Part shown: piece by piece, positions 5,945 to 64,000 of the stretch
Layout of the letters: each line of letters starts with the position of its first letter
Numbering within the stretch: position 1 is the stretch's first letter
NCBI GenBank assembly: GCA_000002445.1
Contig: CH464492.1
Coordinates: 160,001-224,000, forward strand
DNA from: Trypanosoma brucei
Taxonomy: Eukaryota
Direction: 5' to 3'
DNA length: 64,000 nucleotides
Translations under genes and position numbers: made by a program
The notes under the pieces: model-generated
Seen by the model: the letters and a program-made list of their open reading frames with translations, nothing else
What the model was told of the DNA's origin: nothing
Database searches by the model: none

Positions 5945-6020
5945 ATGGCGATAGTAATAATGATAATAAGGTTAGGTTTGTGTTGTGAGTGTGTATATAC
6001 TAATATTATAATGAGACTTT
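5945..6020 (+). repeat. 70-bp repeat, single copy, upstream of VSG cassette 1
   Basis: gataataag...gtgttgtgagtgtgtatatactaatattataatgagac matches the trypanosome 70-bp repeat consensus ((TAA)n then GTGTTGTGAGTGTGTATATACGAATATTATAATAAGAG). Confidence 0.8.
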
Positions 6021-6917
6021 TGCGGACCGAAGTAAACTCCAAAATAAAGGAACTTAAAATAATTGAAAGTGATCAACGAGAAAAAGTAGGTTTGCGAGAA
6101 AGGGTTGAAAAAGGAAAGAAGACGAAATGTGTTTAGATTCAAGCAACAATATGACGATGTTCATCATTATACACAAAGAGATGATGGAGGGGTTAATGCG
6201 GAAGAGACAATGTACAAGCCTAGTGGAGTCACAGCGTTACTCACTTCACCACCATCGCAGAAAGTTGTGATATATAAGTATTATCAAGAAAAAATTGGAT
6301 TTCACATCTCACTATATAATGGATATATTCTTTTCAGAGATGACTGCAGCAGCAGCAGCAGTGGTTCTAAACGCTACGCTAATGGAAGTCTTATGATCAA
6401 AACCGTGTAATTGGGATAAATAACACAGGAAACTTGTAAAATTCCTAGCATATCTGAACTAATCAATGCAAAAAGATACTTCCATTAACATAACTATACA
6501 TAGCGGTGAAATGTGAAGAATGCAATAAAGGAGTAGAATTACTCTAGCGTGCTCTGAACAAGCTGTTGCTAAAGGTGACTTATAAAACAAAAGACTGTAG
6601 ATGCCTGCTCAAAGATAAGCCGCACACACTAAGCAAACGTGTAGCAGCAGATACATCATAACAATATCAATACATTGCTTATGTATATAAAACTGTTTCT
6701 TAACTAAACAGCTTAGTAGTACATCTGGCTTATCTTTCTTGAGTTTTCCACATTTTTTAAAATAAAAGCCTAAAATTATAAAGGTATTTTAGGTAATGAA
6801 TTTTCGTATATTTAGAAATTTACTACTACCGTCGTTATTACATTGTGTATTTAAGCACAATATCTATAGAGAACGATGATATAATAAATTTAAAAATTTA
6901 TTATATCATAAGGAATA

Positions 6918-7783
6918 TTGTTAAGAAAACCTAAAGTATTTGTGGCTGCAGTTCAAACTCGTGCAACTCAAGGATGGTGTAGATTCATATTGAGTGCCAA
7001 ACTAAGTAACATTGAAATTACTACAATTACGATGGGAATTTTGTATATCCATGTTAAAAAGTCTAAATGGGTTATGAAATTTTTAGAGAAACAGAATGCA
7101 AGTGATGAGGATATTGTAATTCATTTGGATGGATCTGATGTTATAATTACTGATGGTAAGAAGTATTACAATACGTTGGAATATTTTGTGCAGAATACTG
7201 CAAAAAATGAAGAGAAGTTTAGTGGAGAAGATATAGTAAAAGAGAAGCACATTTCCCCTATTATATTCATGACAACATCAGAGTGTTATGCTCCTCAGTT
7301 GGATTTGCTTATGAATTCAGATCACAGGAGCATGTGCAGAGATGTCTTTGGTTTTTTAATGTTGGTTACCAAAAAGAGGAGGATAAGAAGCTACCGCATT
7401 TACTGAAATCACCTCACAGTAGAAAACCTTATCTTAGTGGTGGAGGTTTGATAGCAAGAGTTCGGGTGTTTAAGAAATTTGAGTATGCATTTGGAGAATT
7501 ACTAAAGGGAAGTGAGAAGTGGTGGTCGGATCAAAGTATCTATACACCATTGCTAATATGGATTGTTACACAGGAAGAAACTGTTGGACAGATATTTGTT
7601 CTGAGGAGAGGAATAATTGGATTGGATTATGAGGAAGGATTTTTTACTATTCAGAATAGTGGAGAAGTCGAAAGCGCATCATTCATCCATTTTCCTGGGC
7701 AGCCTATTGCGTGGGAGGAGAAAACGAAATTGCTTGCGAGAAAACTTTACTTGGCACAAGGAGTTCGAGAAAAGGCAGTTTAG
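6918..7783 (+). pseudogene. GT8-like (glycogenin/LgtC-type) nucleotide-sugar glycosyltransferase fragment, frameshifted
   Basis: Two overlapping ORFs (6918-7406 and 7283-7783) in different frames. Motif order and spacing resemble GT8: HLDGSDVIITD (DxD region), FFNVGYQ (FNSGv-like), WWSDQSIYTPLL (DQD.LN-like) and IHFPGQPIAW (HFxGxxKPW-like). No N-terminal part and no clean ATG. Confidence 0.45.
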
Positions 7784-8083
7784 CCCGGAAGATTTTTTGA
7801 AAAATTCAAACTTACTCTATACGTTGAGGTCAAAGGAAGTTTGAACACTGGGAAATTTGTAGAGATACGTCTACAGAAGGTGATTTGTTTAGAGAAGAAA
7901 GGCGGTAAGTCATAGGCTATGTTCAAACAGTTGTACCCTCAAAGCAGTTGTTGAAGTATCGGTGTAAGATTAGTAAAATAAATATTAAACGACTCTGTTT
8001 CTTAAAGGTGGCCTGCATCGAAAAAGGATTTCCAAAAAAAAAACTCAAACAGCTATAAGTAGCACTTTTCTACAAAGAGGCGC

Positions 8084-9703
8084 ATGCCAATGTACCGAAC
8101 ACACGCCAAGATAAGCATGCCAGTGCTTTGCATTTTTTCCGTCGTGCTGCAAGACATAGCCACAGCGGATGTTGAACCCGGCGACAACGGCGGCTACTAC
8201 GCTAGTACGTGTGCAATCCTCAACATGCTGCTCGGAGCGACCGCACAAACTGATAACCAAGGCGAGGTACAAAAGATAGCCACGGAGATTGGGGCAATAA
8301 ATCTTTCTGTGGCGGATGAAGCTTTCAGAAAACTTATAAAACACGATGCTGACTGGGACGGCGCACCAATTAAAGCAGAACACGAATCTAAAGAATACAC
8401 ACCGGACTGGAAAGCCAAGTACCCGTTCTGGCGGGCAGCGAAGCAAAAACTGCACTCAAGTCCGGATCAGTTCAAACAATGGCAGGAAGCCAAGCTAAGT
8501 ACATCAGCGAAACATCAGCTGCGACAACTCGCCGAACAAGCCTACGCAGACTATTCCGAACCGACGCTGCAAGAATTTCCGAGCCTCAAAAGGGAATTGG
8601 AGGAAAGAATCAACGAAGCTGTTTACGGCACAAAGACAAACGACGACGATACACAAACACCGGACGGCAGCAGCAGGGCAACAGTGTGTGGGGCAGCAGA
8701 CGGAAGCGCAGGATCCGGCGCAGGGTCATCTCTCAAACACGACTTACTTTGCCTCTGCGGCGCGGTATCAGGCAACCTTGACAAGGTATGCTGCGCAGAC
8801 TGCGGTGCCCAAGCCACACACTCGTGGGGAGCAGGCACCACAGTACCAACAGCATGGAAGCCAATAAAAGCCAACTGCCCCACACACGCAGGGACATCCG
8901 TATTAACCACAGCAAACCTCCAACAGGCTGTCTCAGCGTTCTACACAACGATCAGCAAAAAGCAGTCGACTACCCACAAAAAGCAGTACATCCTAGGCTT
9001 ACTTTCAGGCGACGGCACAAGCGGATGCGCCGGAACCAGCGCCATCAACGGCGGCGCGTGCGTAATTTACAAACGCCAGACGACACAACGCAAGACAAGC
9101 GTATCAATACCATGGGCAGACAAGGCCCTAACAGCCGCAGAAATCGCCGACAAACTGATAAAAAGGCAGGGCACCATTCAGCGACTGGAGGATAGGCTAC
9201 GGCTTCTAAATGTCTCCGTCACGGCCTTAGTACACAATATCGCCGAACAGGCGTCAGCACAAGCAGCAGCAAGCGACACAAGCGACAATACCTCACCAGG
9301 ACAGCAAACAAAATCGGAATCAGAGTGTAATGCAGCAAAAGACAACCAAAAAGACTGTGATACGTTAAAGGACAAGGGGTGCGTTTTTGACTCTGAAGGA
9401 GAGAAGGGGAAAAAGTGCACATTGAGTGAACAAGCCAAAAAAGCAGCAGAAAACGCAGCTGCGGCAGGAACAGGAGATGGAACAGCAGGAACAACAGATA
9501 AATGTTCTGCTGCACAGACCCTTGACGATTACGCCAAAATACATGGAACAATTCCTCAAGGAAAGAAAGCTTTTTGTAGGTGAAGAAGTGAGAAATATAA
9601 CAAGAATGAAAAGGACGAAGGTAAATTCCGTGATTCCAGTTTCTTTGTAAACAAGAAATTTGTTACAACGGCTGCTGCTCTTGTAAATTTGGTATCATTT
9701 TAA
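8084..9703 (+). pseudogene. VSG, full-length frame with one in-frame TGA (9584-9586) before the C-terminal tail
   Basis: ATG at 8084; signal peptide MPVLCIFSVVL; A-type-looking N-domain; C-terminus CAFCR*RSEKYNKNEKDEGKFRDSSFFVNKKFVTTAAALVNLVSF stays in the same frame after the TGA; 70-bp repeat upstream; 3'UTR ttaacacttttg element ~9795. Confidence 0.85.
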
Positions 9704-34440: not shown

Positions 34441-35902
34441 ATACTGAGTGCAAGTCAAAAAACACAAAATATGGCAAAAGTGCTATGTAAGGAACCTAGT
34501 GAGTGAGTAAAAAAGATAAGATAGATAATATTAAATGAGACACAGAAAGAAAAAGGGAAGAGGAGATAAGATATGCGCATTTTCTAACATAAAAATGATT
34601 ATGAGTATCATTATGCACAAGGAGGTCACAGAGGGATGTCTAATGAGAGGCAGAGTGCAGTGTGCACAATAAGTGGGGTAGGCACAACTAACACAGAGAT
34701 TTAGTATAAGTCAAAGTCTTTTTGACCACCTATTGTCGGTACACTCTTAATAACACCTTGAAAATTGCATTATTTCCACTTAGAATACTATTATAGATAC
34801 ACGGAAATGTATCGTGGAGAAAAAAGATGGTTAAAGACATACAGTTCGCCTAGGAGTGCATACTACAGAGGAAGTAACAATAGTAATGTAGCTCAAGCCA
34901 AGTAAGCAGCTGATGATTGCACCTAACCTTGGGGAAAGTTCTAAAATCAGTAGAAAATTAGGTAGACTAGCAATGAACTATAGAATGCACAATAAAAGAC
35001 AAGTAAATCGGCAAAAAGTTTTACCCATCAAAAGATAATGTGTAAAAACTTGGCCTTAACAACCTATACACTCTATTGAGTGAATTATATTATTAGTTAG
35101 GATCAGGAATTACTTTGTTTTCTTGATTTAAACATGTACTAATAGGAAAAGTGGGCTTGAATAAAAAGTTTAGTATAGAAGTGATTTTCCTTACAAGAGG
35201 GTGACCATATGTATCATGGCCTACAGATCCTGAAAAATGCGGCCCATTTCTAGTCTCTATTTGTCCCATACAGAAAACTGTGTTTCAAAGCTTACAAATA
35301 GGTATCAACACAACTCAATAGAGGTGTAGGAGCTGTCGCTGTCGGCCTTTAAAGTTTGAAACCATTTTCAAAGATTTATGAAATTTTTCCGTTACACAAG
35401 CGGTCGGCGCAGCTCAAGAGCAAGTCGGAAGAACAGAGAAGAATATGTTTAGCAAGAATACTACTAGGCAGTGCCTGCAGACAAATTTTCGGCCAACGGC
35501 GATCCGCAATCAGCTGAAAATGTAAGGTAAACACGTTTACTGCAAAGCTTTTCACAGCCGCAGGGTATATAGCAGCAGGGCTTGTGTATACGGAGAGACT
35601 GCTTAAAGGCTATTTATTGTCCCACCCACAATCCAAAAAAAGACAAAGAACGCAGCGCACCGATTTTCAAGCCGCGGGCCCTAAGCCATGCACAGCCATT
35701 CAAACTGCGCTAACGTCACGAAGAGACAAGAAAAACTTCCGATTTTTTTCGACGTGGAGCAACAATCTAAAATACCCCCGGTGTCAATGTATTGCATACC
35801 AGCAACAAGACGCAGCCCAGGACACAAAACATCAATCTCTATTGACAACACTCATGGATTTTTCAACCATGCCAATCACATAGAAAGACAAACAAGCAAG
35901 TG

Positions 35903-37725: not shown

Positions 37726-39874
37726 TAAAATAGTAGATGAAATAAAAGTACTCACAACAATTGCAAGGTGCAGTAGAAGTGATACAGAGAATAAGAGAGA
37801 ACGAGGAATATTATTAAAGATAACACTGAAAGATAAATGGAAAGAGTGGGAATGTGCGCAATATCAAGCAAGAGAATTCACTGAATGCAGAATCATCCGC
37901 AAGGAGGTAACTGATTGGATAATGAGGAAACAAAGAGTGCAGTGCATATGTCAAATAGATTTGTTACAGATAACACAAAGAAGCAGTGGAATTGTAGCGC
38001 ACCAAAAGGCATCATTTCAGCATGCTGTTAAGAACACTTTAAAGAATGCTACTTTCTAGTAAAATTACTATTATGGATACGCAGGAATATGTAGTGGCGA
38101 ATTTAGTCGACAAAGAGTGTCATATATGTCGAAAATTGCTCTTCTTACACAAATTAGTATATCGGACTAAGGTGAGAAAAAAAGCAACTTATGATCGCAC
38201 GGACTCTTATATAAAACGGCCAAATCAGCGCAAAATTGAGAAAGAGTATCAAGAGGAACACGCAAAAAAGGCAGTAATAAAAATGCTACTGTAACGCAAA
38301 GTGGTTTAGAACAACTGTGCGTTAACAATAATTACAGTCAGGAAAATTAGAAAAGTTATTGAATAGAAATAAACTCTTCCTTTTTTGTGATCAAGCACGT
38401 TGAAGTCTAAAATTTTGCTTGTATATCAGACTTAGAGAATTGGATCACGGTTTATCTAGGAGAAAAAACGTGAATGCAACGTTGTGACACTAAACAAGTA
38501 ACTGCATTCATTTCCCTTACGCATCTGTCCTATTTACAGCCGCCTGTATCTTTGAATTGAGGGCCAGAAAGAAATAACACAGAAGTAAAATATAACTCTC
38601 TTATGCGGTTAAATTGTATTTCAAAGCAACTCGCCGGATTAAAAGAGTTTCAACTGCGAAATCTGAATCAACACCGGGGAAAAAACTGCTGCGGTTAAGC
38701 GAGAAAGACGTACGCTCAGCAATGTTCGAGGAAGCTTTAAAAAAGAGGTTAGGAGTTGGTATAGCTCAAGACCTCAGCACAAAACAGCAATTGATAACGA
38801 TGCTGGCGTGTAATCTAGTCATCGTCATAGAGAGGTTGGTGAAACCCACTGCCAAGATAGTAAGTGAACTTGAATGTGGCGACATGCGCCCATAACTTGT
38901 TGGTGAGAAGTCGCTGCAGCTTAGCTGTTAACAGCGTGGACAAGAAATGGGGTTTTCAGGGGCATTACTGCCACTTAGAAAGAAAAAGTTCACCACAAAG
39001 AAGAGGAAAACAAGTAAAGAAAGAGCATTTATAAATTCTAACAGTCTTTTACTGTTTTCAAAAAAGTATAAAAAGTAGAAGAAACACGCCGTAGAAAACT
39101 AAAGCACAAGATTGCGATCAGACAGACATATAATTTTAATAAACTGCAACAAGTTATAGTTTGCTTATAAGTCGACACAAAAGAGAAGGAAAACCTAAGA
39201 CACATTCAAGGATGTACAAAAAGTGCACTGCAGAAAGTCTCTGCAACGCAGCGGCAACACAAACATATAATATTCGTGTGGAAAACAGCCACCAAAAAAC
39301 AATTGAATAGTAATACAAACAACGCGTTCCGTAATCGACCCTCCTCAAAGCAGTAACCAAGTTGTATTTTATATACCTTACATTACCAAACGCACTCAAC
39401 GCCAACGAGCAGTAACCAAAATGTGGTGTAGCTGCCGAAATGACTCAGTGCACACGGGAAATAGAAAATGACCTTGTGAATAAATTAACAACGAAAACCA
39501 GAAACAAACTAGCTAAACTGCTCCTGAGGATACACACATAAATAAATCCGCGTAAAAACGCGCGAAACTCATACCTCTAATAGCGATCATCGCTCACTGC
39601 GTGTAGGAACACAAACAGAGCCGGGCAGGACTACCTAAACTCAACGATACAACACGCACTGTCCAGAGTAACCACTCTAAAAAATCCGAAGGTCAACACA
39701 GTGTGACGAAGACAGAAACGGTAGAACGGAGCAACTCATGCTAACCTTACATCAACAACCTAAAATATTAAGCTTCAAAAACAAACATAACAGTACCTGA
39801 CCAAAGTTCTCAAATAATAGTACCCGGTAACCCCACAAATAAACGTTACAACAAAGGCAAGAAAATTCAAGGAC

Positions 39875-41694: not shown

Positions 41695-41790
41695 TATAAT
41701 AGTAATAGTAATGGCAACAATAAAAATAATATGGGAGTGTTGTGAGTGTGTATATACGAATATTTTAGTATAAGTAGTAGGGAACAGCGC
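41695..41790 (+). repeat. 70-bp repeat
   Basis: taatagtaatagtaatggcaacaataaaaataatatgggagtgttgtgagtgtgtatatacgaatattttagtataag. Confidence 0.8.
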
Positions 41791-42739
41791 ATTGTCGACC
41801 AATATAGAAGCCATGTAAGCTAGTGGAAAGGGTGCAACAAGGGTAAGTGAGTGAGTGAAGCAGTGACTGACTGAGAGGAAATGAGCCATATTGTCAAATG
41901 ACATTAAAAAAGACAGAAAGAGAAGATGGAATATGCATGGATTCAAGCATTAAAGTGACTAGAGGCATTATCATGCACGCAAAGATTATTGAGGGAGACT
42001 ATGTGGAAAAGAAAAGGTCTACTGTACAAGAAAATTGGCGTTTCTACGTTATCAGCGGTGATAGAAGCGGAGATAGAAAACTGGAAAACACAGCACGTAA
42101 CAAAAGTAAATGATAGAAAAGAAACAGATTATATAGTCTAATTAACCCAAAAATGGAAAGATGCCACTTCAATGATGGACGTATAAACCACAGGGGAAGT
42201 AGTTGTTGAGTCTGCGCTGTTAGGATTGCGTATTGAAAACGGACGGTTGTGCTATTTATCACAGGCAGATGGTAAGAGCTTTAGTATATATAAAATAAAC
42301 AGTGCAACTAGCTATCCCTACTCCCATATCAACATATGAAGGTCAAATATGAAGAATGCAAAGAACATCAGAATACACGAGTAAGTAGAAGTGACTGTGG
42401 TTGAAGGTGATTTCTACTAAAACCCCTCTATGACTAATCAAATAAAAGATTTAGACACTATGCACACCCACTCTTCAGCAACTACATTATTAAAATATAA
42501 AGGAAATACTCATACATGCAAGCACTATGGTGCGACAAATTATTTATGTTGTTAATATTTTCAAGTCCATCATATAATTTTATCAAATTTAAAGACAGGC
42601 TAGGTCATGAAACTTTGCATATTGAGAACTTTAATATTACCATTGATGTTACATTTATTGTACTTCACCTAAATATCTTTACAAGATGATATTGTAATAA
42701 AAAACAAATATGATAGAGAATAACACTAAGAAACAAAGA

Positions 42740-43700
42740 GTGCCTGTAGTTTTCGCTCAAACTCATCCAACTCAAGGATGGTGTAGACTCATATTGAGTG
42801 CCAAAACTGACCCATGTTGAAATTATTACAATTGTGATCGGAGGTTTTGTATAGTCATGTTAAAATACCTATATGGGTTATGGAATATTTATAGAGAAAC
42901 AGAATGCAAGTGATGAGGATATTGTAATATAAGTTGATGGGTTTGACGTTATTGTTTCTGACGTAAAAAAAAATATGAAAATGCTGTGGAATATTTTGTG
43001 CAGAATACTGCAAAAAATGAAGAGAAGTTTAGTGGAGAAGATATAGTAAAAGAGAAGCACATTCCCCCTATTATATTCGTGACAACATCAGAGCGTTATT
43101 TTCCTCAGTTGGATTTGCTTATGAATTCAGATCACAGGAGCATGTGCAGAGATGTCTTTGGTTTTTTAATGTTGGTTACCAAAAAGAGGAGGATAAGAAG
43201 CTACCGCATTTACTGAAATCACCTCACAGTAGAAAACCTTATCTTAGTGGTGGAGGTTTGATAGCAAGAGTTTTGGCGTTTAAGAAATTTGAATATCATT
43301 TGAACATTTATTAAAAGGCAGTAGGGAATGATGATCCAATAAGAGCATTTTAAAGCGTTTACTAATTTGGACTGCCATTCAGGAAGAGGCTGTTGGACAG
43401 AAATTTGTTTGGAAGGGGGGAATGATTGGATTAGATTATGAAAAGAGATTTTTTTCTGAACCAAATAATGGTAAGATTGAAAGGACAGTATTTATTTATT
43501 TTTGTTTTTCAGCCACTTGTATGGGAAGAAGAATCAAAATTGATTTTTAGAAGTCTTACCCTGTATAAAGAAATTGAAGTAATGTGGTTTAGTACGAAAG
43601 AGTTGTGTGAAGTTGAAATTTATACAATAATTGGCACAAAATGGATTTCAAATATGGAGATATTTGCGCTCGAAATTTTATATGGTGGAGTTATTTAAAG
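42740..43700 (+). pseudogene. GT8-like glycosyltransferase fragment, second and more degenerate copy of 6918-7783
   Basis: 42990-43270 is near-identical at nucleotide level to 7180-7460 (EYFVQNTAKNEEKFSGEDIVKEKHIPPIIFVTTSERYFPQLDLLMNSDHRSMCRDVFGFLMLVTKKRRIRSYRIY); the flanks are similar but more diverged. Confidence 0.5.
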
Positions 43701-43887
43701 TTAATAAATTGTAGAAGAGCTATGAAGACGGATACTCAGAGCAAGCACAGGTGAGAGCAAGAAATGTTACATTTTTTGTCTTTGTTGTTGTCTGTAAAAC
43801 AGTAGCTGTGAAGCCCTATAATATAGCTGTAAAAAGCAAATTGTTTCTCCATTAATAGTGTCCGTTGGACATCAAATTTAAGCGCAA

Positions 43888-45474
43888 ATGATTCGACCGA
43901 TCCAAGCCGTTTACGTAGCATCGATAGTGATTGCAGCTGCAGTCTGTCAAAGATCCGCGGAAGCGACTACTGAACCAGGCCCAAACGGCGGTGCATTTTC
44001 ATTACTCTGCACTATCATCAACATGTTAAATGCAGGAACACAGCCGCCTGACACCATCCAAGCAATCGAGCATCTCGCAGCTGAGATCGGTGCCTTATAC
44101 CTTTCTCAAGCGCCGGCGAAATTCTGGGATTCAATAGAGGAGGATAAAACGTGGCAAACCCTAGCAGACACCGAAAAGCCCTCAGCTGACGACGACAAGG
44201 CGACATGGGAAAAGTACTATAACTTCTGGGCAGCCTCAAAGAAGCAGATCGCAAAGAAAAAAGAACAATACGAAACTTGGGGCAAAAAGAATCTTGCAGG
44301 TGACTACCTCTCGGAACTAAAAAAATACGCGGAAATGGCATACAACGCGTATACAAACGCAGAGTTGACAAAGTACGCCACGCTCGAGACCACGAGAGAA
44401 ACGTAAGCCGACTTGGCCTTGTACGGGGCCGCAGGCAAAGACAAGGAAAATACCGACGATGCAGCAGGAACGCGAGAGAACAGCTGTGGCCTCGGAGACG
44501 CAGGGACGAGCAACCAGGCCGGAAAAACGATAAGACGGGACATGGCTTGCCTCTGTGCGAAGGGGACAGGGACAGAAGTCAACAACGTTTGCTGCCGCTA
44601 CTGCGACTACAGCGGCGAGTCGACATGGCGCACAGCCCAGCATGCCAAAGCCAAATTCGAGCACCTCATTACGAAATGCCCAGCTTATGCGCCTACACTG
44701 GAGGTAACTAGCTCTAACCTAAACAACATCTTAGCCAAATTGCATGTCACCATAGGCGGCATTCAAGGAACAACAGCGAAGAAGCCCTATGTCCTCGGGC
44801 ATTTAGACGGGACCGGGAACAACGGTTGCGACGGCAAATCTGAAGGAAACGGCGGTGTATGCGTAATCTACAAAGAGACAGCTGGCGGCACAACCAAACA
44901 TGCCGACATTGCGTGGGAGCAGCCAGCAAAACTAGCGTAGGCCGCGGCCGACAGCATGGAGGCCAACAAGCAGAGATTACTCGAGATGAAGGCAGAACTG
45001 ACACTACTAAATGTCACCGCCGGAACAATCAGCCTCTGGGGCAGTCGGCAGCTCAGTGTTACTAGCACAAACAAAGTTGAGCCGGCCGCCCAATGCAATA
45101 ATCACAAAACAAACAAGACCTGCACAGCAGCTAAGTGCAAATTGGAAGAAAAAGATGGAAAGGGTGAGTGCAAACCTAAAGATGGAGCAGAGCAGAAAAA
45201 AGCAGCAGGAACAGGAGGAGATGGAGCTTCAGGAACAGCAGCTTCAACTGAGTGTGCAAAACACGGGACCAAAACTGAGTGCGATGCTGACAAAAAAGAT
45301 GACAAGCAAAATTGTGCATTTAGGAAGGGAAAAGATAATGAAGATGACAAGGTTACAGAAAAGCGCCGCTCTTCTAGTTTTCTTATCAAGAAGAAAATTG
45401 CTATGATTGCAGCTGCTTTTTGTGAGTGTGGTATTACTTTAACGATTTTTGCTCATTATTATGAAATATTTTAA
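43888..45474 (+). pseudogene. VSG with two in-frame stops (TAA 44404-44406, TAG 44938-44940); same subfamily as the VSG at 8084
   Basis: ATG 43888; ORFs 43888-44406, 44413-44940 and 44956-45474 are all in one frame; N-terminus EPGPNGGAFSLLCTIINML matches EPGDNGGYYASTCAILNML of VSG 8084; C-terminus CAFRKGKDNEDDKVTEKRRSSSFLIKKKIAMIAAAF plus an extended tail. Confidence 0.85.
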
Positions 45475-45900: not shown

Positions 45901-47601
45901 CAGTGAATACTGAATAGGCTGGCAAAGTATATGTATTTCAAACAGTGTAAATGCCGAAATGGGATTAAGTAAGTTGGTATGAAAGATAGTAAAAAAAATA
46001 TTATTAAAGGAAACGTGGATAGAATGAAGAGAAAGAATGAATGAGACCGAATACGCGCAGTTTCAAACACAAACATGACGTGAGGCACCAACTCATGCTA
46101 GGAGATTGTGAGGAGGCCGATTATTAGGAGAAATAGTGCAGTGTACAGGGAAATTGTAGGTTCTACAAGACAATACAAAGGAGAAATACTAGATGAAGTT
46201 GAATATGTGCACAGTTGTCAATATTTTCTCAAGACATACTTGACAAATGCATTAATTTATCACAAAGAACTATTATTGAAACAAACATATCAGCTGCAGA
46301 GAGAACAACTGAAGAACAGTATGTAACTTGTTTAAAAGCTTTTCGAACAGCAAATTTTCCTACTCCTGAGCGGCGATTCCATCAAAAAAGTTATCTAATG
46401 ATTTCGCAATACATTGATACAACAATAAAAGAAAGCTATAAATTCAGAAAATATATCAGCAAATTAGATAAAGGGCAGAAAAGCAAAAATACAGTCACAA
46501 ATTAGAACTTTATTACATTACAAGGTTGTGTAGAGAGAGAATAACTATTAGTATCTCATACATTCAAAAAAAGTGGAAATTTATTAGATCGAAACAAAAA
46601 TTTTGTGGCCTTCTATATGAAAGCATGTAAACGTTTGAAAATGACCTTAAATGATAGATTTAGTATGTTAAAAACTGGGTGAAACCTAACACTATGATTA
46701 TAATTACATTAAATTAGAGATTATAAGCCAGAAGGTAACGTTCATTTCACAACAATATTTCATTTACTTTACGGCTTTATGCATCATTAAGTCTAGAACT
46801 GAGCGACACAAAAGAGGGATACAAGTAAAAAGCACGATTAGATTTTATGTGAAGACAACCAGGCCCATAAAAAAGGTTAAAACTGATCTCCAAAATGGAA
46901 AATCAACTCAAACAGGGCACAAAGCCGGTCGAACATTCAATCAACTAGCAGTTTTTCAGACGAATTCAGTGACACGCCCACCAGCGGGCGTGTCAGACCT
47001 GGGGCGCGAGATTATAAACGCGGCAAATTTAGCACGTAAGTTACCCACCTTTACTCAAAAAGTGGCGGAAAATGCACAGCTAGCATGGGAACTGGTTAAT
47101 ATAAGGGTGTTTCTGGCAGGCTTTCGACTGAGAGAAATAACAGAATTCTAGACGCCGACAGGCAATGAATATGTAATTTTCCCTTGGGCCTGCGGCCGTC
47201 ACCCACAGAAGAAGTGCGTAAAATATTTTTATGGCTGTAGTTTTAACAAGTTATGAAGCACATGTCTTTCGCTTTGGCTTCCGCCGTGATTTCTTACAGT
47301 AAAGACCTGCTTTGAAAAAGTGTAACGAATCCATATGGAGTCACTCAAGCAAACAAAGAAGCGGAAATAGGAACCTAAGCAAACGCAACTGGGAAAGAGT
47401 CTGGTAGCGCTACCTACACTGTGTGAAGTCTGTAAATATGTCATTTTTCACAACGAATAAAGCAAAGCTTCAATAAAACCCCTGTCGGCAAACAAGCGCT
47501 CCCTAAACCACTAGAAGCCACCCTTCTCCACCAGCAAAATTTTCTATTGTGAGCAGTGGCAAGCAACCAACCACTGACCAAGTATTTAAAGATCACTGGT
47601 A

Positions 47602-49380: not shown

Positions 49381-50576
49381 GTAAATGGTAAACGCACTGA
49401 CAAAATAAAAGCACTCTAAATATTAAGGGTGAAATTGGAGAAATTGAGTAAAAGAAAGTTTAAAAGAGGGCGAGGAATAGTGTTATGGGAAAGACATGTG
49501 ACTGAGAATGTTAATAAGATTTAATACACGCACTTTTAAACACATACATGACGGCAGGTTTCACTATATGAAAGGATATGATGGAAGGGACAATCAAGAA
49601 GAGACAGAATGCAGTGTACAGGGCAAATGGGGTCGCTACGTATCCGCAAAAGTAGTAACATGATAAGAAAGGAAAGGAAAATCGATGGTGGATTACCAGG
49701 ATATATGGCACAGCAAAGCGCATATAAACATAGTACAGGAAGAAATTGGTGGCTACATTTAACATAAAATAGATAGATACTACCGCTAAAATTGACGAAA
49801 ATGTGTTTTTTCAATCTGGTAGCGGATCCTAATATCCAGCTGTGAAGAATGAGGAACTGAAGAAGAAAAAAGTTTGACTAAAACAAGAAGGGAAACCACC
49901 ACCAAAAAAAAATAAATTACTCCGGCGACACTACAGCAGATGATGTTTACGAAGAGTAAAAGGTTGTAATGGTACTCTTCCAATTCCGTATCGGTATACG
50001 AAGCAGATTCTAAAACCATCGAAGAAACAAGTAATTAACATAAAAGGCGTCGCGGCCGCACATCTAGCGAAGCGCATAAGCTAAATAATACATGAAAAGG
50101 AAGTTGTGTTTGGCGCCCCCAAATTAATGTATAAAACGGCGTCAAAGCAAAATGATATCGGATGCTTGCAAACAAAAAAGGCCCAATCGTACTCGCGAGA
50201 AGCAGTAACTTTAGTTTTTTTATTGTATAAGTGGCAATAAGATATTCTGTCACTCGAAATAGAGCAAATTAACGGCTGTAAAGGTTTATAAGTTAGATAT
50301 AGAATGGTTTGGATGATTTCTAGAGGTAAGTTTCCTGTATCATAGTAGATAGAATCAAAAAATAGAAGATAAAGAAAAATAAATTAAAATCGATAAGAAA
50401 AAAGAAATACTAAGTTTACAGAGAGTAAAGCAGCCTCAAATACAGGGATAAACAGAAAAAAGCGGAAAATGCATTGTCACCGAGTTACAAACAGCAGACC
50501 TGTTTAAACGGCTACCCCAGCGCTGCCGCATATTGACTCTTTTCTTTCACCTTTTCGAACTCTAATAGCTATCTAG

Positions 50577-52053
50577 ATGCTGAAGGTGTTCGCTCTCATT
50601 TTAGTGTCCGCGTTTGGCGTAAACAAGCAAGCGAATACAGCGGCCTTAGCCAACGCAGTGGAGTTCAGACTGCTTTGCAACCTTTACAACCTAAACAAGC
50701 AAAAGGACATGGTAAAAAAAGCAAAAAACGTTCGCACCAGCTGCAGAGACCGTCTCTGAGCTCGAGAAATTAGACGTGTCGACGTCTACTGATTCTTTCT
50801 TCGAAATGCAGGACGGGTACTACACAGATACCGGCGGCAAACAGAACGGGGAAGGATTGCGACAATGGGCAGACAAGAATAAAGCTATAGTCTCAACCGA
50901 AGTCGACGGCTTAAAACCCTATGCACGAATAAGCTTGGAAAGGGAGAGGCTGCGGGCAAATGCTGTAATAAAACGGCTTCTAAGGAGGGCGCAGGGGCTG
51001 ACGGGTAGCTACACATCAAATTTCCAAGCAGTAACAGGCAACGAAACAGCAGCACTACAAAACTGGCGGAAGCAGCTTCTGGCAATGGAAAAACGGCGTT
51101 CAATCCGGACTATTTCAAGAAAGAACGAGCTGACATCTGCGGTGGCATAACAGCCGGACACAACGACGTCAGCAGTTCCATAGCAGCCGATCTGATTTGC
51201 CTGTGCACCAGACAAGGGGTCTTAGCCACAAACGACTGTGGTAACGGCTTACAAGGACAACTCGACGACGGCGGCAGCAAAGAAGGAGCTGCCCCGGCGC
51301 TGTGGAGAGCAATCGAACAACACTGCGCAACATTTCCAAAGCCAAAACTTATAACGAGTGAATTAATTCACCAAAAACTAGCGGCATTCTCAGCGCAAAT
51401 TGGAAGGGGAAACACAGACACGACACAGGCGAACGAAAGATTCACGCTCGGAGCAACTACAGGTTCAGATTGCGACGGCGGCGACGGCAAAATATGCGTC
51501 AATTATCACCTGCAGCTTGGAAAGGGCAAGCCGGGGATACCGTGGGTAACAGCATTGGAAGAGGCGGCCACCTACCTAAAAAATGCCGAGGAAGTGGCAT
51601 TAGCAGCGGAAAAAGCAAAGCAGACAATAGAAATTCTTACAGAACAGGCTAGGAATGCTTACATCGAGGCAGCATTCGAAGCAGCCGAACCACGCAAAAC
51701 ACAGCAAGCGAACAACAACCCTTCAACAAAAAACCCAACTGAGGAAGACTGCAGCAAACACCAATCAAGCGAGAAATGTACAGCCCCCTGCAAATGGAAC
51801 GAGAATTCAACTGACAAAAGCAAGGGTGAATGCTCATTAGACCCAGTAAAAACAGCAAAACAAGCAACCCGAGCAGCAGGAACAGAAGACAAGAAGGAGG
51901 AAGAGAAATGTAAAAGAAAATTAGAGGATGCCTGCAAGAAAGACACTAGATGCAAATGGGAAGATAACAAATGCTTACAAAGATTCCAGTTTCCTCGTCA
52001 ATAAGAAATTGGCTATGATCAATGCTGCAATTTCAAATTTGGTAGAATTCTAA
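50577..52053 (+). pseudogene. VSG with multiple frameshifts
   Basis: ATG 50577 with signal MLKVFALILVSAFG (frame 0, stop 50757); the middle part 50776-51150 is in frame +1; the C-domain ...DCSKHQSSEKCTAPCKWNENSTDKSKGEC...CKRKLEDACKKDTRCKWEDNKC (ORF 51555-52004) is back in frame 0; the GPI tail DSSFLVNKKLAMINAAISNLVEF* is in a third frame and ends at ~52053; 16-mer variant at 52127-52141. Confidence 0.8.
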
Positions 52054-52177
52054 GCAATGCAAGGATATTTTTCAAAAATTATGAAACTTGGCATGCTTAG
52101 AGAATTTACTAAAATTTGATATATTTTAAAGTCTTTTCATGGTAATGTAAAATTTTGAGAATTTTGAAAAAAAATAA

Positions 52178-55100
52178 TTTTTTTATTTTTCATTAATCTG
52201 TACGCACTTCAATTGATCTACATAAACGTTCATGGTGAATACTTTCTACAGCTATACGTTTCTTACCCTCACCATTCGCCACTTTTTTCTTCCTGTGGGA
52301 CATGGATAACCAAGCATTGTTGAGGAAGCGCCCTTTGAATATTGACTTACATCATTTGAGGAAAATCTTACTGGTTGTCATCCAAATGTGTCGCATGTAG
52401 TCAGTGGATATTTAGCATGAAAGTGACCTTCCTCTCTTTATACATTTTGGGGTTATAAGTTTCTTCGTGTCTATAGCGGGAACCGGAATTGCCGTTGGCA
52501 AGAAGACTGCCCTTGGGAAGTTGGTAAGCTTAACACCAAAGTATATATCTTCCCCTTTCGGACTGTCTACTTCATGCTCAGACCTAAGTTTACTCAAAGA
52601 CAGACACTGTAACAGGTGAATCGATGTTTCTTTTCATTTCTCTTTTAGCTCATTTCGCCTATCAGAGCCACGTGCTTGTCCATGTGCTTCTTGGAGGTGC
52701 ATTGTTAGATATTTCTTGTGCGCCTTAGTGCACGAGAGGAGCCAGTGGTGTGATTTCAAGGAGTCTTTCCTCACACTCCCTCTTTACAGTGATTGCATTT
52801 TGGTGGTGTGTGCTTGTATGCCATACTAGTGCACACCATGACATGTAGATGATCTCAAACCTGCTACATGCAAACTCTCTACGATGGTTTTCTGTGTGAC
52901 CTTGATTCCTCTGCTGTTTGTGTTTCGGATCCTCTCTCTGATCTCTCGTATTCTTCTCACCTTTTGGCGTGTCATGCTCAGTCTCTCTTCTTCTCTTTCT
53001 TGTCGTGAAGTTCAAATTTTAATTGTGTGTAACAAGTCTGAGTTGAGAAGTGCTCTATTTATTGAGCCAGGCTTCGACCCATTTTGGTAGTTGTATCTAG
53101 TTATTTAGCTGCTCTATGGTGGTTGTTCACATTCTCACTTTTCGTGCCATTTCTTTCTATGCTCACACACTTGAAGCGTGTTAGTTATGTCTTGCTTTTG
53201 AAACCCCTCTTGCATTTGCCGCAAACACAAAGTGGTGTTTCATCGTCATCCTTATTTTTGTTGTCGCAACTAGTGTCTTCCTTTGATTGTGACTTTGATA
53301 TCTCCTTCGTCGATTTGCTTATCTTTATCGGATATGGACTAAGTGAGATATCATGCCCATGGTGCTTTGTATTCATATGGCGGAACGTCCAGCTATGGTG
53401 GTATTCTTCACCGCATACCTTACATGCTCCTCTCTCCCGCAGTGCTTCCTGTAGTTGTGCGCTTGGTTCCTCTTTGCTCTGCTCCGGATTCCACTTATGT
53501 CTGGTGAGCTAGGTTTTGCTTTTGTACACCTGTTTGCAGAGGAGAGATTCTTATACTTGTTGTACTTGTTCTTGCTCATCTTCGCTGCTCACATCCTGCA
53601 TTTCCGTTTTTTCGTGTTTCATCGGTTTCTCTTTTCGGGATGTTTCAGTCGTATATGTGTGGTCAACAAGTCATACGTGGCATACTGCTTGGGGCAGCAT
53701 TAACACTTGCCGACAGTTTGTACCGAATGTTCTTCTTCTCGCTTCCTCTTTTGTCGCTCTGTCCTTACTACTGGAGTTTTCGGAGGCTGTTGTGGCAGTA
53801 GTTCCTTTCGGTCGAATACTTTACCACATACGTGGCATCGATAGATGCCATTATACGCCTGTGCTACTCCTGGCTCCCTCTTTAATGCAGCTAGTGTATT
53901 TTCACGAACCCACTGACGTACTTTCATTATGTAAAAAACTCCCGCTTGCTATCTTGCACACATGATATTTCATAATGGGCATATGATCTGTTCATTCTGT
54001 CTTGTAGCTAATGCCACCTCGCCTTCCTCATTGTCTTCCATCTTTACAATGTTTTTAGTGTGGCAAGGGGTATTGAGAATGTTCCCCGTATGGTTTGTAC
54101 ACCATCTATATTCCAGTTCGTCAATCTGCCGTGTGATCACCCTATGTAACTATTCACAATGTTTTTGAAGCCCCTGTTCCAAATCGAGCTAACAGTGACT
54201 CATCTTTTCTCTCAAGATCCTTTCTTTTTTGGGTGTCGGTTTTATATGGTTTAGTAAAGCGCTGCGGTGTGTGTTGGGGCACGGCCCTCCTAAAAGCCGC
54301 GTTGTGCTTGATTACGTAATTGGCGCATTATACCTGTGAAAATGTCGGTGATCCATTCAGGGTAAGTTTGCAGCACGTGGTTTTGCTTGCTTGCGAACTC
54401 GTCTACTTTGTCATTTCGCAGGATACCGCAATGCGAAAAAACAAACTGCAACTACATGACTAATCTGGGTTTCATGAAGTGTAGGATCAGATTCTATATG
54501 CGCAAGAATATGGAATCCGTCACTACCTCAGAACCTTTTTTTACTGCCATTAATAAGGATACCGAGCCTGTAAATATTGCCACTTCCGTTTTTATGCTCT
54601 CGTTGATCTTTATTACCGACTTGAATTTTATAAGTCCTGCATTCATGGCTACACGCTTGGCTCTGTATCTGCACGCTAATCTGCCTGCTCATTTCTTCAC
54701 TTTTACTGCATTACCTTGTCTGGATTATATTATCGCGCCGGAACCAGAGGATTCGTTTAGTATCACCGACCCTTCCATACACACTTGATAATCGTAGTCT
54801 TTGAATCTACGTACCCTTTGCATTGTGTGTCTTTTTTTCTCTGTCGGAAGCGTCAGAATGGAGACCACCTGGTGTTGTGGTGTTGAAGTACGGTCTCCTC
54901 ACCAGTTGCAATATACTTGCCATGTGTGGCTTCTCCGGTCTGTCTACTTCTTCATACAGGTGTTACACACTCTGCAGTCGCGTGTGTATCGGACGAATGG
55001 GTGGGAACATTTTCCCCACCATATCGGCTGATGCCCTACCGTTTGCCTGTGTGGTTAAATAGTATTCTATTTCTCGTCTCTGAGCAATATCATCTATTTT

Positions 55101-57853: not shown

Positions 57854-57874
57854 ATTTAACATTTTCGTCAAAAG

Positions 57875-57890
57875 GTGTTAAAATATATCA
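57875..57890 (-). promoter_or_regulatory. VSG 3'UTR 16-mer (exact) of the minus-strand VSG
   Basis: The + strand reads gtgttaaaatatatca, the reverse complement of TGATATATTTTAACAC; it lies about 20 bp from the DIRE 5' end. Confidence 0.8.
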
Positions 57891-59353
57891 ATTTTAGTAA
57901 GTTTCATCAAATTCATAAAATTGAGAAAAAAGTCTCTGAATGCTACCAAACTCATAAAAGCAGCAGCAATCATAGCAAATTTCTGATTTACAATAGAACT
58001 GGAATCTTTGCACTCTTTTCAATCCCATTTCAAATCCGGAGATTTGCAATCTTTATCTAATTTCCCTTTGCATTTCTCTGTTGTTTTTTTCTGCAGCTCT
58101 CTCTGCTCCTTGGCTTTGCTTCTCTTCCGGATGTGCTTCGCATGTGCCTTCAGCTTCTGTCCCATCCCATTTGCAACCCTTATCTTCACAGTTCTTCTTT
58201 GGTTTGTGTTGCTTGCACTCCTCCTGCTTTTGTGCATTATTGCTGGTGTTTCTACATTCTGCTGCAGGTTTTTCTCCCTTTAAAGCTTGATCTATCAGTG
58301 TTATCTCCAGTTTTTTTAGTTCTGTCGTTATGGTCTCTGAGTCGTCTTCTACAAAGCTCTTAAGCTGCTTGCTTATGGTGTTTAGTTCCTCTGCCGTGAT
58401 GTCATATGTCCCTTCTTGGTCGGCGTCTCCCAAGTCTTTCTTTGGGTTTTTGGTCTCTGGTATGTTCGGCTCGTCGCCAGTTCCTAGTTTGTTTATGGCG
58501 GCAAGTTTGTCTAGGGCCCCGCCACGTAAGTTGTTTAATTTTTCTTGCGGGATATCGTTGTATTCCCTGATCGGGCTCCCCGTCGGTAAGCCGCCGTTTA
58601 TGTTTGCGAAAACAGACGTCGAAGTATCCGACGTATGGATGAACAGCAAGCCGCCCATTGCTGGTATCGGTCCCGCGGCCGCCGCACTGTGCCCGAAGCC
58701 GTCCGTATTGTCGGAGGACAGCAGCTTGCAGCTGTCGTTGGTTGCTCTGTGAGCGGTGGTTGTCCAGTCGGCTGCTTTGGGAATGTTGGCTTCTGCGTTT
58801 TGAGCCGTTTTAATGTCCTTTGTTCCTAGCGTTGTTCTCCAGGCTCCGTCGACGAAGCATTCTTCCAGGTGGTCTGCTGTGGCGAGTGTGTTGCCGTCGT
58901 CTTGTGTCACGCAGAACTGACCGTTTTTGCTGCCTTTTGTGGCGAAAAGCAATTCGCCAAATTCGTCTATTCTGTCTGCAGCTAGAGCCGCTGCACCAGC
59001 TTTTTTGCTTGCTCCTGGCACGTTGTCTTTGAGTTGATTGCTGTCTCTATTTGCCTGCGTGTGTGTGTAATTACAAATTTTTTTTTTGGATGGAGCGGCT
59101 TCGGAGACTTCAGAGTTGCTAGTGTTAACTGGGCTTGCGTCTTGGCAGCCGCTGATATGATGGTCATCGCGTCCGAGACAGCCTGCTCTACGTAATTGGT
59201 AGTGTCTTTTAGGCTATTCGATAACTTGCACACGAGATTGAGGCCCGACACTTTTATGCCCTTTTTGGCTGCATGCGACTCTTTGGGCATAAATAAGCAC
59301 ATTGCCAGGCTTATTGTGAGTCGGAAACCATTGAACATTGTTACTTGAGGCAA
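57878..59353 (-). pseudogene. VSG (- strand) with frameshifts and a read-through tail
   Basis: ORF 58053-59021 (...CKQHKPKKNCEDKGCKWDGTEAEGTCEAHPEE...) plus 58019-58237 (KCKGKLDKDCKSPDLKWD) in another frame; the tail ECKDSSSIVNQKFAMIAAAFMSLVAF reads through the 3'UTR and stops at the TAA inside the 16-mer (57875-57890); N-terminal part is ORF 58982-59353. Confidence 0.75.
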
Positions 59354-61084: not shown

Positions 61085-61200
61085 TATTAGTACATACATA
61101 CTCACAACACTATTCTATACTAATAATAATTATTATTATTAGTATTGTTGTTACTATTCATATTTTAATCATCACTGATATTTATACAATAATAAATAAT
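61085..61200 (-). repeat. 70-bp repeat, minus-strand orientation
   Basis: The reverse complement of 61090-61150 reads ctaataataataattattattagtatagaatagtgttgtgagtatgtatgtactaatat. Confidence 0.75.
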
Positions 61201-61440
61201 GACCCAAATTACGGTAGAATTTTTTTACACTGTATCATCCTGTTTCTTAAATCCTATAAGTCACTTTCATAGTAAAAGTTCGCCCTTCTCAAATTATTAA
61301 AAAATTTTCTGTTTTGTACATTTTTATCAAAAACTGTTAAAATAAATAAATTTGTAGCAAATATTTTTAAAATATAACAAATTATCTCAAAGTGAAAAAT
61401 TTCATAATATTGAGCAAAACCCATTGAAATTTTAGAATAG

Positions 61441-63010: not shown

Positions 63011-63174
63011 TTCTTGTGTATCTTCTTGGTGAGGTTATCTGTGTTATAGTCGCCTCCTTAGTTTTATTATTATAAAGCCTTTGGGATGCAAAGTATTTAT
63101 TGTTTGTGAACAGGTACCAAGCTAGAAAGATGCGATGTAGTGCTTTAGTGTAGTATTCAGCATTGAAATTCGTG

Positions 63175-63903: not shown

Positions 63904-64000
63904 GCAATTGTTGTTTGTATGAGGTTAAAGGGCATATACTATAATCAACTTCCCACTAAAATTATTTGACTTCTTCGCAACTTCAGGATAACTCCAACAA

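What the first reader, a model, noticed from the sequence alone, without database searches (positions are those of the whole stretch)
41695..45474. Segmental duplication of a whole cassette (70-bp repeat + GT8-like fragment + VSG); the flank is better conserved than the VSG
Cassette 5945-9703 and cassette 41695-45474 share the same architecture. The GT8-like segment is near-identical over ~280 bp (7180-7460 vs 42990-43270, a handful of mismatches). The two VSGs are clearly homologous but much more diverged (EPGDNGGYYASTCAILNML... vs EPGPNGGAFSLLCTIINML...). Stronger conservation of the non-coding or pseudogenic upstream flank than of the VSG ORF fits diversifying change in VSGs, or gene-conversion tracts that homogenise the co-transposed region.
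Basis: seen in the sequence. Interest (0 to 1): 0.5.

Follow-up and report, generated by a model that had tools for sequence, protein, structure and literature searches.

The report
ESAG3 pseudogene conversion patch, VSG cassettes
Two silent trypanosome surface-antigen gene cassettes each carry a dead copy of the ESAG3 glucosyltransferase gene upstream of the antigen gene. A 286-base stretch was recently copied between those dead copies, which is an ordinary example of known subtelomeric recombination, not a recent duplication of the whole cassette.

Summary
Both cassettes read 70-bp repeat, about 0.8 kb, glycosyltransferase-like pseudogene, about 175 bp, class-B VSG. A 7177-7462 matches B 42987-43272 at 281 of 286 bases.

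The "GT8-like fragment" is a full-length ESAG3 pseudogene in each cassette: A 6796-7902 and B 42607-43667, 67-68% amino-acid identity to expression-site ESAG3.

Identity is layered, not uniform:
- 5' flank 65%
- left part of ESAG3 77%
- core 98%
- right part 67%
- no homology in the spacer before the VSG
- VSGs 31% amino-acid identity, with synonymous sites saturated

Outside the core, each pseudogene is closer to functional ESAG3 than to the other, and they share no inactivating lesion. Their divergence carries a purifying-selection signature (dN/dS 0.18-0.5). Inside the core they share a 1-bp deletion and six derived residues.

The best reading is a recent, short, patchy gene conversion (A-like donor into B) laid over cassettes that are at most anciently related. 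A recent whole-cassette duplication is rejected. Diversifying selection on the VSGs cannot be tested.

Both the architecture and the process are already documented in T. brucei, so interest is low.

The parts
5951..6016 (+). 70-bp repeat at the head of cassette A
   Evidence: Matches the other 70-bp repeats of the window
6353..6795 (+). 5' flank of ESAG3 pseudogene A, specifically homologous to B 42191-42606
   Evidence: Local alignment A 6353-6888 vs B 42191-42701 is 65% identical (JC distance 0.47). Score is 62.5-67.5 against 14 +/- 1.7 for shuffles. B is its best partner in the whole window
6796..7902 (+). ESAG3 pseudogene A: full length (aa 1-367), 5 frameshifts and 1 in-frame stop
   Evidence: 76% identity to Q26748, which belongs to the expression-site ESAG3 cluster. 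Frameshift-aware protein-to-DNA alignment gives 68% identity
7177..7462 (+). Gene-conversion island, copy A (probable donor or donor-like copy)
   Evidence: 281/286 identical to B 42987-43272, with no synonymous difference and no A-private change relative to ESAG3
7325..7326 (+). Site of the 1-bp deletion (after the His codon of NSDH|KEHVQRC), shared with B at 43135-43136
   Evidence: It is the only inactivating lesion common to both pseudogenes, and it lies inside the island
8084..9703 (+). VSG-A, class B, with a premature TGA at 9581-9583 that removes the GPI-signal region
   Evidence: Pfam VSG_B plus the VSG C-terminal domain. The 539-aa VSG 1125.261 aligns in frame over 8084-9700
41696..41784 (+). 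70-bp repeat at the head of cassette B
42191..42606 (+). 5' flank of ESAG3 pseudogene B, homologous to A 6353-6795
42607..43667 (+). ESAG3 pseudogene B: aa 1-353, 9 frameshifts and 4 in-frame stops
   Evidence: tblastn. Frameshift-aware alignment gives 67% identity to ESAG3
42987..43272 (+). Gene-conversion island, copy B (probable recipient)
   Evidence: All 5 differences are B-private relative to ESAG3 proteins
43064..43101 (+). 38-bp patch holding all 5 mismatches of the island; probably unconverted B sequence, making the tract discontinuous
   Evidence: 87% identity inside the patch. The chance that 5 random sites span 38 bp or less of 286 is 0.001
43888..45474 (+). VSG-B pseudogene, class B, with in-frame stops at 44404-44406 and 44938-44940
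   Evidence: Three collinear ORFs in one frame carrying VSG_B and the VSG C-terminal domain

Best explanation
The window is a Trypanosoma brucei subtelomeric array of silent VSG cassettes. Two cassettes lie 35.8 kb apart in the same orientation. Each carries a decayed full-length copy of ESAG3, the VSG O-glucosyltransferase gene, between its 70-bp repeat and a class-B VSG pseudogene. The two ESAG3 copies are old, separately decayed members of the ESAG3 family. They differ by about 23-35% in DNA, and much of that divergence arose while the genes were still under purifying selection. Recently a short homologous-recombination event without crossover copied about 286 bp from copy A, or from an unseen A-like copy, into copy B. 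A 38-bp patch inside the tract was left unconverted. The event carried a 1-bp frameshift deletion and six derived codons with it. The result is the near-identical island and the impression that the flank is far better conserved than the VSG. The VSGs belong to the same class-B subfamily but diverged long ago. Shown: element identities, layered identity, shared versus private lesions, and the statistics of the island. Inferred: recombination as the cause, direction A to B, and the relative ages.
For: Identity by segment: 5' flank 65%, left 76.7%, core 98.3%, right 67.2%; spacer and VSG N-domain have no nucleotide homology. Permutation test: 0 of 100,000 shuffles reach the 171-bp perfect run. 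Comparison with 11 expression-site ESAG3 proteins: in the flanks A-ESAG3 is 76-77%, B-ESAG3 64-76% and A-B 53-60%. Shared derived residues: 3 of 77 derived states in the flanks against 6 of 10 in the core (Fisher p=3e-5). The only shared frameshift lies in the core; the 4 other frameshifts and 1 stop of A and the 8 other frameshifts and 4 stops of B are private. In the core there are 0 differences at 55 synonymous sites, against dS 0.44 (left) and 1.48 (right). This excludes selection as the cause of the identity. All 5 core differences are B-private and fall within 38 bp. Literature: ESAG3 loci are recombination breakpoints in expression sites, and ESAG3 pseudogenes occur 3' of the 70-bp repeats in BES7 and BES15 (PMC2567434). 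ESAG pseudogenes are prevalent in VSG arrays (PMC4766357).
Against: No ESAG3 DNA from outside the window could be obtained. A third copy as donor to one or both pseudogenes therefore cannot be excluded, and the outgroup comparison is at protein level only. Copy A is itself unusually close to ESAG3 over codons 90-212 (7% against 25% different, p=9e-5). That region extends beyond the island, so A's centre may also have been refreshed earlier or may have been more constrained. The direction A to B rests on five sites. Left and right flanks differ in age (synonymous differences p=9e-4), so more than one event is needed for the full pattern.
Confidence: 0.72

Rival explanations
1. Ancient duplication of a whole cassette (70-bp repeat, intact ESAG3, class-B VSG). 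Recurrent gene conversion then kept parts of the ESAG3 flank similar while the VSG diverged to saturation. It is compatible with the best explanation for the core; it differs only on the origin of the shared architecture.
For: Spacings are nearly the same: 70-bp repeat to ESAG3 ATG is 780 vs 823 bp, and ESAG3 stop to VSG ATG is about 175 bp in both. The VSGs are reciprocal best hits in the window. VSG-B ranks 4th among non-orthologous cluster representatives for VSG-A out of 283 hits. The A-clade and B-clade are sisters in an NJ tree. Right-flank dS of 1.48 is of the same order as VSG C-domain dS of 1.35.
Against: The sister grouping has only 47% bootstrap. There is no homology in the 175-bp spacer. 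No lesion is shared outside the core. VSG N-domain synonymous sites are fully saturated, whereas the non-coding 5' flank has a distance of only 0.47. Only 5 class-B VSGs are in the window, so reciprocal best hit is weak evidence.
Confidence: 0.45
2. A recent segmental duplication of the entire cassette, after which the VSG diverged rapidly by diversifying selection or hypermutation while the flank stayed similar.
For: Architecture is shared, and the flank is more conserved than the VSG.
Against: Only 286 bp are near-identical. The rest of the ESAG3 unit is 65-77% identical, with private frameshifts and stops. VSG synonymous sites are saturated, which selection on the protein cannot produce. 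Each VSG has closer relatives elsewhere (42% and 38% identity for A; higher-scoring clusters for B).
Confidence: 0.03
3. The island is the functionally constrained core of ESAG3, retained in both copies by past purifying selection, with no recombination between them.
For: The island includes the glycine-rich loop (SGGG) of the GT-A fold. Both copies are 89-94% identical to functional ESAG3 there.
Against: There are 0 synonymous differences at 55 sites, against dS 0.44-1.48 in the flanks. The copies share a frameshift and six shared non-ESAG3 residues. Polymorphism among expression-site ESAG3 proteins is similar in all three segments: 15/85, 10/95 and 8/92 sites.
Confidence: 0.04
4. Assembly or polishing artefact: reads from one copy were used to correct the other.
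For: Repetitive subtelomeres are error-prone. No reads are available to check.
Against: The flanks are only 67-77% identical, so reads spanning the island boundaries would not cross-map. The 38-bp internal patch of B-specific bases and the sharp boundaries look biological.
Confidence: 0.03

Closest known systems
ESAG3 pseudogene located 3' of the 70-bp repeats in Lister 427 bloodstream expression sites BES7 (VSG 427-3) and BES15 (VSG 427-11), Hertz-Fowler et al. 2008 (PMC2567434)
   Same: Same order of elements: 70-bp repeat, ESAG3 pseudogene, VSG. ESAG3 is inactive and sits inside the unit that can be co-transposed with the VSG.
   Different: Here the cassettes lie in a silent multi-cassette array, not at a telomeric expression site. 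No DNA comparison with BES7 or BES15 was possible. VSG-A and VSG-B are nearer to VSG1954 than to VSG3 among solved structures.
Functional expression-site ESAG3, a Mn2+-dependent retaining GT-A O-glucosyltransferase of class-B VSGs (bioRxiv 10.64898/2026.01.27.701950)
   Same: 67-68% amino-acid identity over the full length. The DXXD and glycine-rich motifs are recognisable. The adjacent VSGs are class B and carry a Cys-flanked Ser-containing loop (CAGTSAINGGAC; CDGKSEGNGGVC) like the substrate loops tested in that study.
   Different: Both copies are pseudogenes with many frameshifts and stops. B has lost the E244/Q245 and H297 equivalents. No expression is expected in a silent array.
Segmental gene conversion within subtelomeric multigene families of T. 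brucei: VSG mosaic formation, ESAG recombination blocks, and VSG family conversion (Gjini et al. 2012, PMC3472502; PMC2567434)
   Same: A short, sharply bounded tract of near-identity inside diverged paralogues, with no crossover.
   Different: The tract lies in a non-functional flank gene, so it has no antigenic consequence. It is patchy: 77 + 171 bp perfect, separated by a 38-bp unconverted patch.
ESAG pseudogenes scattered through silent VSG arrays (stated in PMC4766357; also Berriman et al. 2005, from my own knowledge)
   Same: A decayed ESAG3 copy interspersed with VSG pseudogenes and 70-bp repeats.
   Different: Nothing of substance. This is an instance of that known class.

Membership tests
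ESAG3 / GRESAG3 gene family | Full-length sequence similarity to expression-site ESAG3 proteins | tested here: met
   A covers aa 1-367 at 68% identity and B covers aa 1-353 at 67%. The stitched A protein scores 76% identity, E=2.5e-138, to the ESAG3 cluster.
ESAG3 / GRESAG3 gene family | Intact open reading frame (a functional member) | tested here: not met
   A has 5 frameshifts and 1 stop; B has 9 frameshifts and 4 stops. Both are pseudogenes.
ESAG3 / GRESAG3 gene family | GT-A catalytic residues (D110/D113, G215-G216, E244/Q245, H297 per the 2026 preprint) | tested here: inconclusive
   A keeps DGSD, GGG and H297, with D in place of E244, a variant also seen in expression-site ESAG3. B keeps DGFD and GGG but has NK in place of EQ and Y in place of H297.
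ESAG3 / GRESAG3 gene family | Location in a telomeric bloodstream expression site | tested here: not met
   The window holds at least ten consecutive 70-bp-repeat/VSG cassettes plus a decayed retroelement, which is array context.
CAZy/Pfam GT8 (Glyco_transf_8) | Significant match to the GT8 profile | tested here: not met
   No GT8 hit at E<=0.1 for the pseudogene ORFs or at E<=1 for intact ESAG3. The only glycosyltransferase hit is the PLOD GT domain, below threshold (23.7 and 16.5 bits against a cutoff of 27).
Class-B VSG | VSG_B N-terminal domain and VSG C-terminal domain | tested here: met
   VSG-A: VSG_B 6.8e-66 plus the C-terminal domain. VSG-B: VSG_B in two ORF pieces (1.7e-19, 1.5e-32) plus the C-terminal domain 1e-18.
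Class-B VSG | Uninterrupted ORF ending in a GPI-anchor signal (a functional VSG) | tested here: not met
   VSG-A has a TGA at codon 500, upstream of the GPI signal. VSG-B has two in-frame stops.
Recent segmental duplication | Roughly uniform high identity across the whole duplicated unit, with shared lesions | tested here: not met
   Identity ranges from background (VSG, spacer) through 65-77% to 98%. Only one lesion is shared.
Ectopic gene-conversion tract | Sharply bounded island of near-identity within diverged homologues, beyond chance | tested here: met
   0 of 100,000 permutations reach the observed island.
Ectopic gene-conversion tract | Phylogenetic discordance: the copies are sisters inside the tract only | tested here: met
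   Shared derived states are 6 of 10 in the core against 3 of 77 in the flanks, p=3e-5. The outgroup is protein-level only.
Ectopic gene-conversion tract | Identified donor and recipient | tested here: inconclusive
   All 5 differences are B-private and clustered, which favours B as recipient. A third donor outside the window cannot be excluded.

The most novel reading that the evidence does not exclude
ESAG3, recently reported to be the O-glucosyltransferase that modifies a Cys-flanked serine loop of class-B VSGs, was ancestrally part of the transposable cassette of a clade of class-B VSGs. Enzyme gene and substrate gene would then have moved into expression sites together. The decayed ESAG3 copies now persist as homology islands that still recombine and could set the upstream boundary of VSG conversion. 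Pointers: both ESAG3-bearing cassettes here carry class-B VSGs with such a loop. The two Lister 427 expression sites with an ESAG3 pseudogene 3' of the 70-bp repeats hold VSG3 and VSG11, both O-glucosylated class-B VSGs. That is four of four, which by chance is about 1 in 16.
Probability: 0.1. Interest if true: 0.5.

Novelty: new member of a known kind. Interest (0 to 1): 0.15.

Why it matters
It matters little on its own. It is a clean worked example showing that silent array cassettes 36 kb apart exchange short, patchy tracts even within dead flank genes. It also shows that similarity of cassette flanks cannot be read as evidence of recent cassette duplication or of diversifying selection on the VSG. 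The one point worth a follow-up is whether ESAG3 pseudogenes in the 70-bp-to-VSG spacer are preferentially linked to class-B VSGs that carry the O-glucosylation loop. A genome-wide survey would settle that quickly.

Tried and rejected
**No outside DNA.** Six exact-protein look-ups all returned nothing: VSG-A, three ESAG3/VSG relatives and two cluster representatives. No ESAG3 or orthologous-locus DNA from outside the window could be used.

I computed it, but it is uninformative: pS is 0.73-0.76, which is saturation.

**Link to the VSG3/VSG11 clade.** This is not supported by sequence. The only solved N-domain matching either VSG at E<=0.001 is VSG1954.

**An N-terminal deletion in ESAG3 pseudogene A.** I dropped this idea. 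The frameshift-aware alignment recovers the start codon and signal peptide in both copies.

**Homology of the first 340-400 bp after the 70-bp repeat as evidence of duplication.** Rejected. Scores against other cassettes are just as high: 32, 30 and 29.5 against 34 for A vs B.

**Bootstrap runs.** The first timed out and a second, using the Kimura protein distance, failed numerically. I repeated it with Poisson distance.

**Other ESAG3 copies in the window.** There are none.

Full report
**Context.** The window is a Trypanosoma brucei subtelomeric array of silent VSG cassettes.
- There are about a dozen VSG-like ORFs.
- 70-bp repeats head the cassettes at 5951, 10002, 13434, 17025, 26404, 34374, 37660, 41716, 45747/45831 and 49312 on the plus strand, and at 61139 on the minus strand.
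- Pfam VSG_B or A-type VSG domains are present.
- The closest database relatives of the VSG at 8084 are T. brucei EATRO1125 VSGs.

**Checking the observation.**
- The strongest internal similarity of the whole window is 6953-7645 vs 42757-43454, at 85.9% over 703 bp.
- A global alignment of the two cassettes shows strongly non-uniform identity.
- A finer alignment places a sharply bounded island at A 7177-7462 = B 42987-43272. It is 286 bp with 5 mismatches and no gaps, made of perfect runs of 77 and 171 bp separated by a 38-bp patch that holds all five mismatches.
- Permuting the alignment columns 100,000 times never produced a perfect run longer than 78 bp, nor a 286-column window with fewer than 32 differences.
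- The VSGs are homologous (BLASTP E=5e-63) but only 30-31% identical in protein and 46% in DNA.

**What the "GT8-like fragment" is.**
- A stitched translation of the A copy hits a single protein cluster at 76% identity (E=2.5e-138). Its members are the expression-site-associated gene 3 (ESAG3) proteins of T. brucei.
- Pfam gives only a sub-threshold match to the PLOD glycosyltransferase domain and nothing for GT8.
- A 2026 preprint reports that ESAG3 is a Mn2+-dependent retaining GT-A O-glucosyltransferase. It is structurally closest to LH3/PLOD3 and glucosylates a Cys-flanked serine loop of class-B VSGs.
- A frameshift-aware protein-to-DNA alignment shows both copies are full-length pseudogenes, not fragments.
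  - A: 6796-7902, aa 1-367, 68% identity, 5 frameshifts, 1 stop.
  - B: 42607-43667, aa 1-353, 67% identity, 9 frameshifts, 4 stops.
- These are the only ESAG3-like sequences in the window.

**Extent of A/B-specific homology.**
- Homology runs from about 440 bp upstream of the ESAG3 start codon to the end of ESAG3. A 6353-6888 vs B 42191-42701 is 65% identical, with a local score of 62-67 against 14 +/- 1.7 for shuffles. Each is the other's best partner in the window.
- The first 340-400 bp after the 70-bp repeat are no more alike in A and B (score 34) than either is to other cassettes (up to 32). That segment is generic cassette sequence.
- The roughly 175-bp spacer between the ESAG3 stop and the VSG ATG shows no homology, nor does the VSG N-terminal domain at DNA level.
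- The repeated unit is therefore the ESAG3 gene with its 5' flank, not the cassette as a whole.

**Layered divergence inside the ESAG3 unit.**

| Segment | Nucleotide identity |
|---|---|
| 5' flank | 65% |
| Left of the island (6906-7176) | 76.7% |
| Island | 98.3% |
| Right of the island (7463-7800) | 67.2% |

I projected B onto A's codons and compared both with 11 full-length expression-site ESAG3 proteins:

| Segment | A-ESAG3 | B-ESAG3 | A-B |
|---|---|---|---|
| Left | 76% | 76% | 60% |
| Island | 94% | 89% | 96% |
| Right | 77% | 64% | 53% |

- Derived states shared by A and B are 3 of 77 in the flanks but 6 of 10 in the island (Fisher p=3e-5).
- The only frameshift common to both copies is a 1-bp deletion after the His codon of NSDH|KEHVQRC (A 7325/7326, B 43135/43136). 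It lies inside the island; every other lesion is private.
- Nei-Gojobori estimates for A vs B:
  - Left: dS 0.44, dN 0.22.
  - Right: dS 1.48, dN 0.27. The excess of synonymous change has p=1e-8.
  - Island: no change at 55 synonymous sites and 5 non-synonymous changes.

I draw three conclusions.
- Outside the island, much of the divergence accumulated under purifying selection. The two copies therefore descend from distinct, once-functional ESAG3 lineages and were inactivated independently.
- The island has a separate and very recent common ancestry that selection cannot explain.
- The left and right flanks differ in age (p=9e-4 for synonymous differences). The pair is therefore a mosaic with at least three strata, as expected for a family that recombines repeatedly.

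**Mechanism and direction.**
- The simplest account is a short ectopic gene conversion without crossover between two direct-orientation copies 35.8 kb apart.
- All five island differences are B-private relative to ESAG3 proteins. They cluster in 38 bp, and five random sites would do so with probability 0.001. Identity in that patch is 87%, closer to the flanks (67-77%) than to the perfect runs on either side.
- I read the patch as unconverted B sequence within a discontinuous tract. B would then be the recipient, and A or an unseen A-like copy the donor. This step is inference.
- One caveat: A itself is unusually close to ESAG3 over codons 90-212. An earlier refresh of A, or a third donor, cannot be excluded without ESAG3 DNA from the rest of the genome. 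None could be retrieved.

**The VSGs.**
- VSG-A spans 8084-9703. A TGA at codon 500 removes the GPI-signal region. The 539-aa VSG 1125.261 aligns in frame across it, and the 93%-identical VSG 1125.4202 has the same 499-aa length.
- VSG-B (43888-45474) has two in-frame stops.
Diversifying selection can be neither supported nor refuted.
- In an exhaustive HMMER search of 1.84 billion cluster representatives, 283 proteins matched VSG-A. VSG-B would rank fourth among non-orthologous relatives of VSG-A. VSG-A ranks about eighth for VSG-B. Each has closer relatives elsewhere.
- In a neighbour-joining tree the VSG-A clade and the VSG-B clade are sisters, but with only 47% bootstrap.

**Was there ever a cassette duplication?**
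- A recent one is excluded by the layered identity, the private lesions, the saturated VSG synonymous sites and the non-homologous spacer.
- An ancient common origin of the architecture remains plausible. The spacings are nearly identical (780 vs 823 bp; about 175 bp in both), and the VSGs are probably in sister clades.
- Right-flank dS (1.48) is of the same order as VSG C-domain dS (1.35). I give this about 45%.
- It is compatible with the conversion explanation for the island and can be settled by looking upstream of the nearest VSG relatives in complete genomes.

**Comparison with what is known.**
- ESAG pseudogenes are prevalent in VSG arrays (PMC4766357; also Berriman et al. 2005, from my own knowledge).
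- An ESAG3 pseudogene 3' of the 70-bp repeats is documented in Lister 427 BES7 and BES15. ESAG3 loci coincide with recombination breakpoints in expression sites and do not cluster by position (PMC2567434).
- Segmental gene conversion is the established mode of evolution of these families (PMC3472502).
- The finding is therefore a new instance of known elements and a known process.

**The most novel reading not excluded.**
- ESAG3 is now reported to glucosylate Cys-flanked serine loops of class-B VSGs.
- Both VSGs here are class B and carry such a loop: CAGTSAINGGAC in A and CDGKSEGNGGVC in B. In HMMER's alignment VSG-A's loop lines up with the VSG1954 loop used as a substrate peptide.
- The two Lister 427 expression sites with an ESAG3 pseudogene between the 70-bp repeats and the VSG carry VSG3 and VSG11, both O-glucosylated class-B VSGs.
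- Four of four is suggestive but weak, about 1 in 16 by chance. Neither VSG here is VSG3-like by sequence. Three other class-B VSGs in the window lack ESAG3.
- I give an ancestral enzyme-substrate cassette linkage about 10%.

**Verdict.** Novelty is low and interest is 0.15.

Noticed in passing
window 9581-9583 (VSG-A codon 500): VSG-A is truncated by a TGA where the 539-aa VSG 1125.261 has Trp. The 93%-identical EATRO1125 VSG 1125.4202 is also exactly 499 aa. The same GPI-signal-less allele therefore seems to be shared between strains.
   Followed up: partly
window 6100-6230; 13516-13722; 34549-34679; 37835-37929; 46027-46166: A generic conserved element lies about 100-250 bp downstream of the 70-bp repeats and is shared by several otherwise unrelated cassettes. 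Local scores are 22-32 against about 12-13 for shuffles.
   Followed up: partly
window 17841-22840, minus strand: A decayed non-LTR retrotransposon (endonuclease, reverse transcriptase and a zinc-finger piece, in broken ORFs), presumably ingi-like, interrupts the cassette that starts with the 70-bp repeat at 17025.
   Followed up: partly
window 63178-63834, minus strand: An ORF with a sub-threshold Galactosyl_T match (E=7.5e-4, 19.8 bits against a cutoff of 23). It may be a remnant of a different glycosyltransferase family.
   Followed up: no
window about 50000-64000: The array changes orientation. The 70-bp repeat at 61069-61139 and the VSG-like sequences at 57.9-59.0 kb and 61.5-61.8 kb are on the minus strand.
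   Followed up: no
window 9023-9058 (VSG-A) and 44839-44874 (VSG-B): Both VSGs encode a Cys-flanked Ser-containing loop (CAGTSAINGGAC; CDGKSEGNGGVC). In HMMER's alignment VSG-A's loop lines up with the VSG1954 loop GCDGIGGSNGGKC, which was used as an ESAG3 substrate peptide in the 2026 preprint.
   Followed up: partly
window 45380-45474 (end of VSG-B): The C-terminal hydrophobic tail of VSG-B (SSSFLIKKKIAMIAAAFCECGITLTIFAHYYEIF) looks longer than a canonical VSG GPI signal. That suggests loss of the normal stop codon (the canonical length is from my own knowledge).
   Followed up: no
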